Assembly (NCBI GenBank): GCA_030264375.1
Contig: JASCQW010000032.1
Span: forward strand, 40,831,265-40,895,264
Reading direction: 5' to 3'
From: Carcharhinus longimanus
Lineage: Eukaryota
DNA length: 64,000 nt
A program made the position numbers. Of this stretch, positions 45,001 to 48,000 are shown piece after piece (position 1 is the stretch's first letter; each line of letters starts with the position of its first letter).

Positions 45001-48000
45001 GGTTGGCAGGACACTAAAGATACAGGAACTAAAGCACAATTAGGATGAAGGTAATTTATTTGGTCTTCACCTCTGAAGTTGGGCTGGATTAGCGGGAAGT
45101 GCTTTGCCTACATTAACCTATTTTGACTACTGTAAATAAAGCTTATCTAAATGGATGAGAGAAAAAGGACAAGAGGTTGACTGAATAAAATAAAGCGAGG
45201 TAGGCTGAGACTTGTGTGGATCATAAACACTGACATAGACCAGTTGGGACGAATGGCCTGTTTCTGAGCTATAAAATTCTATGTTAATTCTATGTACTTA
45301 CAATTGCTTTCAAGAAGTCAATACAAACGGTGTGATTCCCTTATGTAGGTTCACAACCCCAGCATTTTACGTATTACTGGTATGAATATTAGATTGTCAC
45401 ATGAAACAAGTGGCAATCTCCAAATATATGATTCTCAAGGAAGAAGGTTGCACTAATACAACCACATTCATCCCACAAAGAAGCTGTCAGATGCTAAAGG
45501 AACAGTTAGTTAGCAACTGAGACGGTACAAGGCAGTACCAGTCAAATGGTATTGACAAAACAGGCTTCTAATTACCAATAAATGTATCATACAAATAAAG
45601 AACTATCAACTAACTCTAGCTGCATTTTTGTGGCCATACAATAATTAGAAATGATATGCAGGATGGGGTACCCTTCACCATAATCTGCTTGATAAAACTG
45701 CTTCTACATGCTTTTAGTCATGTGATACTGTACACTGGCAGCTCCTAGATCACTACCATCTTTATTACTTTTCCATCTACCTCACGCTGCCTCTATCCTG
45801 CTCCGTCTGTCGCATAACATTAAAAACTATATATTACATCAAATAATAAATGTCCACCAGTGACTTTAAGGCAGTAATTCAATCTTGGGGTTCATCTGAC
45901 ATTCATAAACTGCTCAAGCTTAGCTTACTGTCAGCCATTTATTATCTCATATGTATTAGATACTGCACCATCTTACATTTACTTTACTAGATACCTACTC
46001 ATAATCTCTTTAAGCTACAAAGAAATGAAGAAACACACTTTAATTAACCGAGAATCTCTTGTATTGCTGTTAATTTATAATTTGGAATATTATTCATATC
46101 AAGCCCTTTTAATTTGATGAACAGCTTACATGAAGTGGTTAAGACCTTCCCTTACTGTTAAATTTGATAAAGAAAGCCCCTTTTGCAAAGCCTTATTTGT
46201 CTTTTATGGCTTTAATTTTATCCATCAGTTCATTAACTCTCTATATCCACAAAATCCTCCAAGGGAGGGAAAGTTTTCCAGGCAATTCCATGGATCTTGT
46301 TTTTCAATGTACTATAAGGATGTCTACTGAAGTGAGTTTGAAATACCCCAATTGCTGGACAGTTTCATCCTTTCTTCCCATAAATGATCGAGCTGAAACT
46401 TGCAAAATTCACCCTCCAGGAAATTCAGTTCGAACTATCAACTGACACTTGTTTTCTAGCTGCAGGTCCAGCATTCGTCTTTCAGTACTTGTAATAAATA
46501 TATTCAAACTTCTAAACTCTCCACAGCAAAACTGCATAAAATATATAAAATATAAAGATTTAATTGTAGATAATATGCAACCAGATATATCTAGTTGATT
46601 GATCATGGCACAAGATCAAATTCTGCATAAAGGGATGGGATGGAGGTGGGGGGTAAGCTCTGTAGTGCTGTTCAGACCCAGTACCATAAATCTTTTCTGT
46701 CTTGATCCTGCTTGCATTGGATCTGAACACACAAGAGTAACTGGCCACAAAAACACCATCATTGAGAATGTAATGGACGTAAACGACAACCAATCCCACT
46801 GCCCGACTGCTTGACAGAAGAAAATGTAGATATTATTATGTAAAAAAAAGAGTAAAAGGTAAGAACATCTCTAAGTATGCGTTTAGTCTTTTTTAGCCTT
46901 AGTTATCTTTTTCACAAGCACAATAGTCTCTATAAATGTATCCCCTTGCTCTCTGATCTGGATTCTAAGATAACAAACAGGAAAATGGTATCATGATGCT
47001 TAGGTGTGTTTGTAAAGGTAAGTTATAGAAAAGCAGACGGATTGGAATGATAGCTGCTTATGGAGTGCATTACCAGAGAAGAAAAACTATAAAAGAATAC
47101 CTGCTAACAGAGGCACCAGGTCAAATCAGCAGCAATGCATGATGATAATTATCTGTGTTAACGGACTAACCCATCACTGCTACTTCAAATCAATGCACAG
47201 CTAAATGTCATTATTAAACACTTCAATACTTCATGAGATGCATTTAGTCTATCAAATTAGCAGAAAAAAAGAAGGTGCTATAGTTGTGTATGATAGATCT
47301 TATTCTCCTAATCTTCATACTTGAAATTCTATCTATTTCTGTTAATGATACAGCATCCACGTCCTTCAATGTTTCCAAAATCCTTAAATATTTTAACATC
47401 TCTTAGAGCTCCCATTTCTCCATTATTTATAAAAATACAAACTTTAGCCATTCAATAATTGCTGTGCAGGTATATGTGGTGTCTTTTATTTTGTTACCAC
47501 ACTTGACCAGATACCACAGTCAGAATTTTTTTACCTGCAATTAATTAATTGTCTTACAAGAAGACAACAAATATATCTGAACAAAAGTGTTTCTCGTTGG
47601 GAAGTATAGACAGGGATATCATATATATACGTATCTGATATGCATTGCTGCTGATTTGACCTGGAGCCTCTGTTAGCAGGTATTCTTTTATAGTTTTTCT
47701 TCTCTGGTAATGCACTCCATAAGCAGTTACCATTCCAACCTGTCTATAACTTATCTGTACAAACACATTAAGGAATAGGGATTAAATAAGTTCCTTATTT
47801 TAATTGTTGTTTCTTCCTGCGCAATATTCTTCCAAACATTAGTTTTAGATTACCAATTTAGATTTAGGAACCGTATTGTTTTCAAAACAATGCTAGATAG
47901 AGCGGCATCATCTACTTTAAGATTTATATCTTGGATATGTGTGGTTTTTAACTGCAGACAAATGGCTGGGGTGGCTGATGCTGTTTTACTGAAGCTGTGG

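What the first reader, a model, noticed from the sequence alone, without database searches (positions are those of the whole stretch)
47005..47767. Unexplained near-perfect long inverted repeat in a TE-poor block
Seen: an 87-nt core (47054-47140 versus 47640-47726) pairs with a single mismatch across a ~500-nt unique spacer, while the outer ~45 nt are more diverged (mostly A/G transitions, which would give G-U or A-C pairs, plus an 8-nt indel). The arms match no repeat family elsewhere in the window, and I see no TSD or sharply conserved termini. Inference: the inner arms have been kept identical, either by selection on a long RNA duplex (ADAR editing substrate, hairpin-RNA/endo-siRNA precursor, or splicing loop-out) or by intrachromosomal gene conversion or inversion. 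An old exapted fold-back element is an alternative.
Basis: partly seen in the sequence, partly recalled or inferred. Interest (0 to 1): 0.7.

Follow-up and report, generated by a model that had tools for sequence, protein, structure and literature searches.

The report
Lone 763-bp inverted-repeat element, probably transposon relic
A real 763-base structure with two ~130-base inverted arms around a 499-base spacer sits in non-coding vertebrate DNA; it looks most like a single decaying copy of a small mobile element rather than a purpose-built RNA hairpin, but the decisive genome-wide copy count could not be done here.

Summary
The inverted repeat is real. Its arms are 47005-47140 and 47640-47767: 136 alignment columns, 123 matches, 5 substitutions and 8 gap columns. 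The 87-nt core has one mismatch, an A opposite an A at 47115/47665. The arm-to-arm blastn E-value is 7e-46, and the next best match in the window has E 0.21.

- The ends are sharp. The terminal 10 nt pair perfectly, there is no similarity beyond either end, and the termini read 5'-TG...CA-3'.
- The flanking pentamers TTAGG and TTAAG match at 4 of 5 positions exactly at the repeat's ends. Random placements do this 2.1-3.5% of the time, although a looser scan is no better than chance.

The contrast between the conserved inner arm and the diverged outer arm is statistically weak, with P from 0.004 to 0.14 depending on alignment and test. Nothing therefore needs to have kept the core identical.

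Both strands fold equally well. There is no Rfam match and no host exon among 455 ORFs scanned.

My best reading, at about 0.5, is a single copy of a non-autonomous element with terminal inverted repeats. Genome copy number, orthologues and RNA data could not be tested with these tools. Interest is low.

The parts
47005..47140 (.). Left arm of the inverted repeat (136 nt). Begins 5'-TGTGT. Carries 8 extra bases within 47030-47041.
47141..47639 (.). Unique spacer of 499 nt. GC is 31%. It has no internal palindromic symmetry and no Pfam-detectable coding remnant.
   Evidence: spacer halves score 12 against a shuffle mean of 13.8; GC; ORFs, Pfam
47640..47767 (.). Right arm of the inverted repeat (128 nt). 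Ends ACACA-3'.
47054..47140 (.). Near-perfect inner core of the left arm. It pairs with 47640-47726. The only mismatch is 47115 A opposite 47665 A.
47030..47041 (.). Indel cluster: 8 bases present in the left arm and absent from the right arm.
47000..47004 (.). Left flanking pentamer TTAGG. Candidate target-site duplication together with 47768-47772.
47768..47772 (.). Right flanking pentamer TTAAG. Matches the left pentamer at 4 of 5 positions.

Best explanation
The 763-bp structure at 47005-47767 is one copy of a small non-autonomous mobile element with long terminal inverted repeats of about 130 bp. It belongs to the MITE or foldback kind.

It inserted into AT-rich non-coding DNA. Since then the arms have drifted apart by about 4% in substitutions plus one small indel cluster.

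On this reading the arms exist because they were the sites a transposase bound and cut. The spacer is what remains of the element's interior. The near-identity of the inner arm reflects modest age and chance, not maintenance.

The TG...CA ends and the possible 5-bp target duplication point to an integrase-type transposase, the kind used by Ginger/TDD/GingerRoot-like elements and LTR elements. The superfamily is not established.

Shown: the anatomy, the sharp ends, uniqueness within the window, and the absence of coding or RNA-family signal. Inferred: mobility, the target duplication, the superfamily, and neutrality.
For: - Size and layout fit a non-autonomous terminal-inverted-repeat element: 136/128-nt arms and a 499-nt non-coding, AT-rich spacer.
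- Both outer ends are sharp. The terminal 10 nt are perfectly complementary and there is no similarity beyond them.
- The termini are 5'-TG...CA-3'.
- The flanking pentamers TTAGG and TTAAG match at 4 of 5 positions exactly at the repeat-defined ends. Of 191791 random placements, 4086 (2.1%) do as well.
- The same window shows that inverted repeats of this scale are usually repeat-derived. Of 16 inverted-repeat pairs, 13 have an arm that matches a third place in the window.
- The window also holds a foldback-like family of similar size, 61014-61727 (about 714 bp), with further copies at 2697-2901 and 1351-1414.
- Integrase-type DNA transposons are described with TG...CA termini, terminal repeats of 40-270 bp and target duplications of 4-6 bp, and are reported in fish. 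I read passages of PMC2836005 and PMC6839031.
- Both strands fold equally well, as expected for symmetry at the DNA level.
Against: - There is no second copy of the arms in the 64-kb window. The window's other repeat families recur 1-8 times.
- ORFs read through the arm in two frames found nothing. One search covered 5.8 billion predicted proteins (1 candidate, none scored). The other covered 1.84 billion representatives (0 hits at E <= 0.001). A length-matched ORF from the window's SINE found 21 of 21 candidates at E <= 0.01. This argues only against a hyper-abundant family.
- The target-duplication evidence is weak and was found after the fact. With +/-3 nt of slack and lengths from 2, 1614 of 2890 random placements score as well.
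- There is no 8-bp or other longer duplication, although arms only about 4% diverged should still show one.
- The outer arm is more diverged than the inner arm. That is not the usual conservation pattern of transposase-binding ends, although within one dead copy no pattern is expected.
- No transposase remnant lies in or near the element.
- Termini of TGTGT do not fit the published TGTNR pattern at position 5.
Confidence: 0.5

Rival explanations
1. This is a local, non-transposon inverted duplication. A replication template switch, or a staggered-break micro-inversion, copied about 130 nt in reverse complement 0.5 kb away. The result is neutral. A later template switch or a single gene-conversion tract could have re-homogenised the inner ~90 nt.
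For: - The arms are unique in the window and absent from the protein-derived proxies.
- There is no convincing target duplication when slack is allowed.
- The contrast between the inner and outer arm (P 0.004-0.14) would follow from a second, shorter copying event.
- Template switching is documented to create and repair perfect reverse-complement repeats (PMC8794818, abstract and outline read).
- Arm-to-arm gene conversion is documented for much larger palindromes (PMC3723533 and PMC8981503, search listing and abstract starts only).
Against: - The 4 of 5 flanking pentamer match at exactly the repeat ends is unexpected under this model (2.1-3.5% by chance).
- The TG...CA termini would also be coincidence.
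- The base rate in this window favours repeat-derived inverted repeats: 13 of 16 pairs.
- The template-switch events described in the paper concern short stems. A 130-nt copy across 500 nt is my extrapolation.
- Arm GC (39%) is only slightly above the flanks (36-38%), so there is no clear GC-biased conversion signal.
Confidence: 0.22
2. This is a selected hairpin-RNA locus. The region is transcribed and the ~130-bp duplex is used as a Dicer substrate (endo-siRNA precursor), as an ADAR hyper-editing substrate, or as a splicing loop-out. This could be an exapted element.
For: - If transcribed from either strand, the RNA would form a very stable long duplex, -304.7 or -306.2 kcal/mol with z -24 and -17.5.
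- The core is 86 of 87 paired.
- The element stands alone in a block free of within-window repeats.
- Nearby inverted repeats are the conventional source of ADAR substrates (PMC9989829, passages read).
- hpRNA loci are known endo-siRNA sources in flies (PMC10317233, search listing and abstract start only).
Against: - There is no evidence of transcription. No host exon appears among 455 ORFs scanned over the window. The 40-48 kb bins show no strand skew, with AT and GC skews within +/-0.05.
- There is no strand preference in folding.
- The two transversions and the 8-nt bulge break pairing on both strands.
- There is no Rfam family at E <= 1.
- The inner/outer contrast that motivated the idea is statistically weak.
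- A single sequence cannot show compensatory change.
Confidence: 0.07
3. Two independent copies of one short interspersed repeat inserted in opposite orientation 0.5 kb apart, like the inverted SINE pairs elsewhere in the window.
For: The window contains such pairs, namely I5, I9 and I11. Their arms match 7-8 other places in the window.
Against: - The arms are 96% identical in substitutions, so the family would be young and should recur. No other copy is in the window.
- There were no hits in the protein-derived proxies, where the SINE control gave 21.
- The arms have no tRNA-like head (ARAGORN found 0 genes) and no A-rich or simple-repeat tail.
- The inner and outer limits of the two arms coincide exactly.
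Confidence: 0.05
4. This is an assembly artefact: a falsely joined fold-back.
For: The assembly is a draft. There are nine N runs in 64 kb, five of them exactly 100 N. Two 100-N gaps are flanked by identical 40-41-mers.
Against: - The arms differ by 5 substitutions and 8 indel bases. A fold-back chimera would give identical arms and usually no unique 499-nt spacer.
- The nearest N runs are about 4.1 kb (51879) and 7.8 kb (39222) away.
- The longest perfect stretch shared by the arms is 61 nt, 47054-47114, so ordinary reads can span it.
Confidence: 0.03

Closest known systems
MITE / foldback-type non-autonomous DNA transposons, including the window's own family at 61014-61727 and 2697-2901
   Same: A sub-kilobase unit made of two long inverted arms around a short non-coding centre. 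It has sharp outer ends and no coding capacity.
   Different: - The window's own family recurs 3 or more times in 64 kb, and its ends read CAGTAAGAAG with TA next to 2 of 4 ends. That this is Tc1/mariner-like is my recollection, not a test.
- The focal arms have no sequence similarity to that family, no second copy in the window, different termini (TGTGT), and no TA, TTAA or 8-bp duplication that stands out.
Integrase-related DNA transposons (Ginger1, Ginger2/TDD, GingerRoot)
   Same: They have TG...CA termini and terminal repeats of 40-270 bp (Ginger1), 50-180 bp (Ginger2) or 100-150 bp (GingerRoot). Target duplications are 4-6 bp, and 5 bp in TDD-4/5. GingerRoot relatives are reported in fish. 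I read passages of PMC2836005 and PMC6839031. The focal element has TG...CA ends, arms of 128/136 nt, and a 4 of 5 pentamer match at its flanks.
   Different: - There is no transposase here or nearby.
- TGTGT departs from the TGTNR pattern at position 5.
- The flanks are not CCGG/CCGT (Ginger1) and are not obviously RTATAY (Ginger2).
- Most GingerRoot ends are TA...TA, with a 6-bp duplication.
- Described elements are 2.6-13 kb, not 0.76 kb.
- The resemblance was found after the fact.
Hairpin-RNA (hpRNA) endo-siRNA loci and ADAR-edited inverted-repeat dsRNAs
   Same: A long, near-perfect intramolecular duplex is possible on either strand.
   Different: Those loci are defined by transcription and by small RNAs or editing. 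None of that can be seen here. No strand preference or conservation was detectable.
Large sex-chromosome palindromes kept alike by arm-to-arm gene conversion
   Same: Inverted arms around a unique spacer, with high identity between the arms.
   Different: - In my recollection those arms are kilobases to megabases long. The abstract starts seen here (PMC8981503 and PMC3723533, search listing) state only that they are large, more than 99% to 99.9% identical through gene conversion, with multi-kilobase conversion tracts.
- Here the arms are 130 nt long and 90% identical when gaps are counted. I judge that too short for sustained conversion, which is inference.

Membership tests
MITE / non-autonomous TIR DNA transposon | Terminal inverted repeats with defined outer ends | tested here: met
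   Arms are 47005-47140 and 47640-47767. The terminal 10 nt are perfect, and no similarity extends beyond the ends.
MITE / non-autonomous TIR DNA transposon | Target-site duplication flanking the ends | tested here: inconclusive
   TTAGG and TTAAG match at 4 of 5 positions at zero offset. Chance is 2.1% (4086 of 191791), or 3.5% for any length 4-10. With slack the result is no better than chance: 1614 of 2890.
MITE / non-autonomous TIR DNA transposon | Multiple dispersed copies in the genome sharing the same ends | not testable with these tools
   No eukaryotic genome, Dfam or Repbase is on hand. Within the window there are 0 other copies. The protein-set proxies gave 0 hits, against 21 for a SINE control.
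MITE / non-autonomous TIR DNA transposon | Small size and no coding capacity | tested here: met
   The element is 763 bp. The longest stop-to-stop ORFs are 60-75 aa and have no Pfam match.
Ginger/TDD/GingerRoot (integrase-type DNA transposons) | 5'-TG...CA-3' termini; the TGTNR pattern in Ginger1/2 | tested here: inconclusive
   TG...CA is met, but TGTGT fails TGTNR at position 5 (pattern from PMC2836005).
Ginger/TDD/GingerRoot (integrase-type DNA transposons) | Encodes, or is mobilised by, a Gypsy-integrase-like DDE transposase | not testable with these tools
   No such ORF lies in 39.3-51.8 kb. The Integrase_H2C2 ORF at 6516-6800(-) lies next to RT and RNase H fragments at 7269-7783(-), so it looks like an LTR element 40 kb away.
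Ginger/TDD/GingerRoot (integrase-type DNA transposons) | Target duplication of 4-6 bp with the family's target preference | tested here: inconclusive
   A 5-bp candidate matches at 4 of 5 positions. It is neither CCGG nor CCGT.
hpRNA / endo-siRNA or ADAR-substrate hairpin locus | Transcribed, with small RNAs or A-to-G clusters mapping to the arms | not testable with these tools
   No expression data are available. No exon or strand skew lies nearby.
hpRNA / endo-siRNA or ADAR-substrate hairpin locus | Long, near-perfect intramolecular duplex | tested here: met
   MFE is -304.7 kcal/mol on the + strand and -306.2 on the - strand. Of 20 shuffles on each strand, 0 fold as well.
Known structured RNA family (Rfam 15) | Match to a covariance model | tested here: not met
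   There were 0 matches at gathering score over the whole window, and 0 at E <= 1 in 46500-48300.

The most novel reading that the evidence does not exclude
The structure is a single-copy, lineage-specific hairpin-RNA gene of a (probably cartilaginous) fish. It would be born from an inverted duplication or an exapted foldback element. Its ~130-bp duplex would be processed into endogenous siRNAs or hyper-edited by ADAR, and its inner stem would be kept paired by template switching or conversion.
Probability: 0.05. Interest if true: 0.55.

Novelty: new member of a known kind. Interest (0 to 1): 0.15.

Why it matters
If it is what it most likely is, a lone relic of a small inverted-repeat transposon, it matters only as a repeat-library entry. 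It also reminds us that uniqueness within a 64-kb window says little about uniqueness in the genome.

It would matter more if genome-wide searches showed a truly single-copy locus that is transcribed. Vertebrate hairpin-RNA loci outside mammals are poorly known, and this would be a clean substrate for testing endogenous RNAi or ADAR editing in an early-branching vertebrate.

Tried and rejected
- **Outward and inward extension of the repeat.** Neither is present. Both local scores are 12, below the shuffle means of 14.0 and 13.8.
- **Target-duplication scan with slack.** It is not distinguishable from chance. I compared hAT-type 8-bp, TA, TTAA and TTA readings of the flanks by eye. None gave symmetrical ends.
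- **Rfam.** No match. ARAGORN found 0 tRNAs in the window.
- **Arm ORFs as a proxy for copies elsewhere.** There were 0 hits in two protein collections. The SINE control shows the proxy can detect very abundant repeats (21 hits). I did not run a control with the window's foldback family, so its power for moderate-copy families is unknown.
- **Naming the organism.** I searched with the reverse-transcriptase ORF at 31885-32433(-). None of 469 candidates scored, because of the tool's length limits. The taxon stays unestablished. Together with the RNase H ORF at 31540-31764(-), that ORF looks like an LTR-element pol rather than a LINE.
- **Search for a host gene.** I ran 455 stop-to-stop ORFs through Pfam: 93 of >=85 aa window-wide, 75 of 45-84 aa in 39.3-51.8 kb, and 287 of 50-84 aa elsewhere. 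ORFs containing N were left out. The only hits were transposon domains and two chance-level hits at E 0.02 and 0.034. Short exons can escape this scan.
- **Strand skew as a sign of transcription.** None was seen in 40-48 kb.
- **Not attempted, because it cannot bear on a vertebrate repeat:** the genome-contig scan (bacteria and archaea only) and the phage, plasmid and E. coli collections.
- Metagenome contigs and viral contigs.
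Full report
**What is there**

Reading 46800-48000 and running repeat finder on 46500-48300 confirm an inverted repeat. A gapped alignment pairs 47005-47140 with the reverse complement of 47640-47767.
- The alignment has 136 columns, 123 matches, 3 transitions (47018, 47050, 47053), 2 transversions (47015, 47115) and 8 gap columns.
- All 8 gap columns are extra bases in the left arm within 47030-47041.
It is an A facing an A at 47665.
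- The spacer is 499 nt and the whole unit is 763 nt.
- The pairing cannot be chance. The arm-to-arm blastn E-value is 7.1e-46 against the window, and the next best match has E 0.21.
- RNA folds of 46985-47787 give -304.71 kcal/mol on the + strand (z -24.0) and -306.2 on the - strand (z -17.5). Of 20 shuffles on each strand, 0 fold as well.

**Setting**

- The window has 40% GC and a CpG observed/expected ratio of 0.25, which is typical of a vertebrate. It has nine N runs, five of exactly 100 N, so it is a draft scaffold.
- I do not take it for human. It carries several copies of a SINE-like repeat (families D2-D5) that I recall as fish or shark type. No call tested that.
My one attempt at naming the organism, with a reverse-transcriptase ORF, returned nothing: of 469 candidates, none scored.
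- Of 455 stop-to-stop ORFs put through Pfam, the only credible hits are transposon domains:
  - Integrase_H2C2 at 6516-6800(-), with RT and RNase H fragments at 7269-7783(-)
  - RT_RNaseH at 24231-24509(-)
  - RVT_1 at 31885-32433(-), with RNase H at 31540-31764(-)
  - a sub-threshold DDE_Tnp_4 at 5470-5706(-)
- No host exon was recognised, so I cannot say whether the repeat is intronic or intergenic.
- Within-window self-similarity is 0.00 in the three 2-kb bins from 40001 to 46000. In 46001-48000 it is 0.13, and the only hit listed there is the repeat itself. AT and GC skews in 40-48 kb stay within +/-0.05. The 'TE-poor block' description therefore holds as far as a 64-kb window can show, and there is no transcription-type strand asymmetry.

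The ends are sharp.
- The terminal 10 nt are perfectly complementary.
- Local alignment of the 400 nt outside each arm scores 12, against a shuffle mean of 14.0 +/- 2.1. The two halves of the spacer score 12 against 13.8 +/- 2.1.
- The repeat therefore neither fades outward nor continues inward.
- The unit begins TGTGT and ends ACACA, that is 5'-TG...CA-3'.

There is a candidate target-site duplication.
- Directly outside the ends lie TTAGG (47000-47004) and TTAAG (47768-47772), a 4 of 5 match.
- Among 191791 random 763-bp placements in the window, 4086 (2.1%) have a pentamer match this good at zero offset. Allowing any length from 4 to 10, 6670 (3.5%) do.
- When I allowed +/-3 nt of slack and lengths from 2, 1614 of 2890 random placements scored as well.
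- The candidate duplication is therefore suggestive, was found after the fact, and is not proven.

**Is the inner arm 'kept identical'?**

The answer depends on the alignment and the test.
- With 5 substitutions in 128 aligned sites, seeing one or none in 87 sites has P = 0.14.
- With the alternative single-indel alignment (7 in 128), P = 0.045.
- A scan statistic that asks how often randomly placed events leave an 87-column stretch with at most one event gives 0.12 for 6 events and 0.025 for 8.
- This is a hint of heterogeneity, not a demonstration. One formation event followed by about 4% divergence (Jukes-Cantor 0.040) is enough. A single later copying event covering the inner ~90 nt would also be enough. 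Continued selection is not required.

**Tests bearing on an RNA role**

- Rfam gives no match at gathering thresholds in the window, and none at E <= 1 in 46500-48300.
- The two strands fold equally well.
- The three transitions give two G-U pairs and one A-C on the + strand, and one G-U and two C-A on the - strand. The transversions and the 8-nt bulge break pairing on both strands.
- Nothing here argues for a transcribed, selected hairpin. A single sequence also cannot argue strongly against one.

**Tests bearing on copy number**

- As a proxy, I searched ORFs that read through the arm in two frames.
  - The 75-aa ORF at 47557-47781(-), searched against 5.8 billion predicted proteins, gave 1 word-sharing candidate and none scored.
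  - The 70-aa ORF at 47534-47743(-), searched against 1.84 billion representatives, gave 0 hits at E <= 0.001.
- A length-matched control ORF from a SINE copy at 37186-37419(-) returned 21 of 21 candidates at E <= 0.01.
- The proxy can therefore see hyper-abundant repeats, and the arms are not one of those. It has unknown, probably low, power for families of moderate copy number. I ran no control with the window's foldback family.

**Local base rate**

- Of the 16 inverted-repeat pairs of at least 30 nt within 5 kb in the window, 13 have an arm that matches a third place in the window. Those arms are therefore pieces of repeat families.
- The exceptions are the focal pair, I8 (53174-53263 / 55158-55247, 79%) and I15. 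I15 is the outer end of structure I1, whose other parts do have a third copy.
- One family is a close structural analogue. It spans 61014-61727 (about 714 bp) with arms that are 87-94% complementary. A 205-bp hairpin version lies at 2697-2901, and partial copies lie at 1351-1414 and 59769-59905.
- Inverted repeats of this size are thus ordinary here and mostly transposon-derived. The focal one is the best-paired of them (95%).

**Interpretation**

I put about 0.5 on a single copy of a non-autonomous element with terminal inverted repeats.
- For it: the size and layout, the sharp ends, the TG...CA termini, the candidate 5-bp duplication and the local base rate.
- The closest formal description I could find in print is the integrase-type DNA transposons. 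They have TG...CA ends and terminal repeats of 40-270 bp (Ginger1), 50-180 bp (Ginger2) or 100-150 bp (GingerRoot). Their target duplications are 4, 4-5 or 6 bp, and relatives are reported in fish. I read passages of PMC2836005 and PMC6839031.
- I do not file the element there, for three reasons. No transposase is present. TGTGT misses the TGTNR pattern at position 5. The flanks do not show the families' target preferences.
- Elements with inverted terminal repeats and no target duplication, such as DIRS-like or Penelope-like arrangements, are further possibilities. They come from my own recollection and I did not test them.

The rivals are these.
- A local inverted duplication by replication template switching or a staggered-break micro-inversion, at about 0.22. 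It explains the uniqueness and, with a second event, the inner/outer contrast (mechanism in PMC8794818, abstract read). It does not explain the flanking pentamers.
- A selected hairpin-RNA locus, at about 0.07.
- An inverted pair of independent repeat insertions, at about 0.05.
- An assembly artefact, at about 0.03. The arms differ by 5 substitutions and 8 indel bases, and the nearest N run is about 4.1 kb away.
- The remainder is unassigned.

**Literature seen**

- PMC9989829 (passages): pairing of nearby inverted repeats is the conventional source of long dsRNA for ADAR.
- PMC5381603 (passages): in the one cartilaginous-fish genome reviewed, non-LTR elements and SINEs dominate and evolution is slow.
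- PMC8794818 (abstract and outline).
- PMC2836005 and PMC6839031 (passages).
- Seen only in search listings: PMC10317233, PMC11239679, PMC3723533, PMC8981503, PMC8327919.
Supplementary files were not consulted.

**Verdict**

It is most simply read as an ordinary selfish or neutral DNA-level inverted repeat. The tests that would settle the matter are genome copy number, the orthologous site and expression data.

Noticed in passing
window 61014-61727; 2697-2901; 1351-1414; 59769-59905: A multi-copy foldback/MITE-like family. There is a ~714-bp copy whose arms are 87-94% complementary, a 205-bp hairpin copy (96-nt arms, 13-nt loop), and partial copies. The ends read CAGTAAGAAG, with TA adjacent at 2 of 4 ends. 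That it is Tc1/mariner-like is recalled, not tested.
   Followed up: partly
window 63614-63653 and 63754-63793 (flanking the 100-N run 63654-63753); also 51836 and 52001 around the 100-N run 51879-51978: An identical 40-mer lies immediately on both sides of a 100-N gap. This suggests two overlapping contigs that were scaffolded instead of merged. The 51879 gap sits inside a 14-bp-period minisatellite and shares a 41-mer across it. I looked only at the flanking bases. Nothing was filled in.
   Followed up: partly
window 22728-25042: A large inverted-repeat structure with arms of about 300 nt at 82-86% complementarity (I1, I13 and I15). It encloses an RT_RNaseH fragment at 24231-24509(-), and a third partial arm copy lies at 19625-19669. 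It is probably two inverted copies of a retroelement end.
   Followed up: partly
window 1974-2121, 2245-2398, 12003-12156, 16435-16597, 37212-37342, 56864-56936 and others: A SINE-like repeat with at least 6 copies at 60-90% identity. An ORF read through one copy finds 21 look-alikes among proteins predicted from unnamed public contigs. This shows that non-coding vertebrate repeats leak into such protein sets.
   Followed up: partly
window 51709-52186 and 52438-52551: Two minisatellites: a 14-bp unit (CCCTCGTGTCACTG, about 27 copies across a gap) and a 22-bp unit (about 5 copies), in a bin with 46-47% GC.
   Followed up: no
window 6516-7783 (-), 31540-32433 (-), 5470-5706 (-): There are degraded LTR-retrotransposon pol fragments: integrase zinc domain, RNase H and RT. 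There is also a sub-threshold Harbinger-type DDE_Tnp_4 fragment (20.3 bits against a cut-off of 24.8). No host protein domain was seen anywhere in the window.
   Followed up: partly
window 53174-53263 / 55158-55247: A 90-nt inverted pair, 79% complementary and 1894 nt apart. Like the focal repeat, it has no third copy in the window.
   Followed up: no
window 47015-47023: The left arm contains AAAG|GTAAGT, a textbook-looking 5' splice-site string. The matching position of the right arm is mutated (GATAAGT on the - strand). No adjoining exon was detectable. It is probably chance in AT-rich DNA.
   Followed up: no
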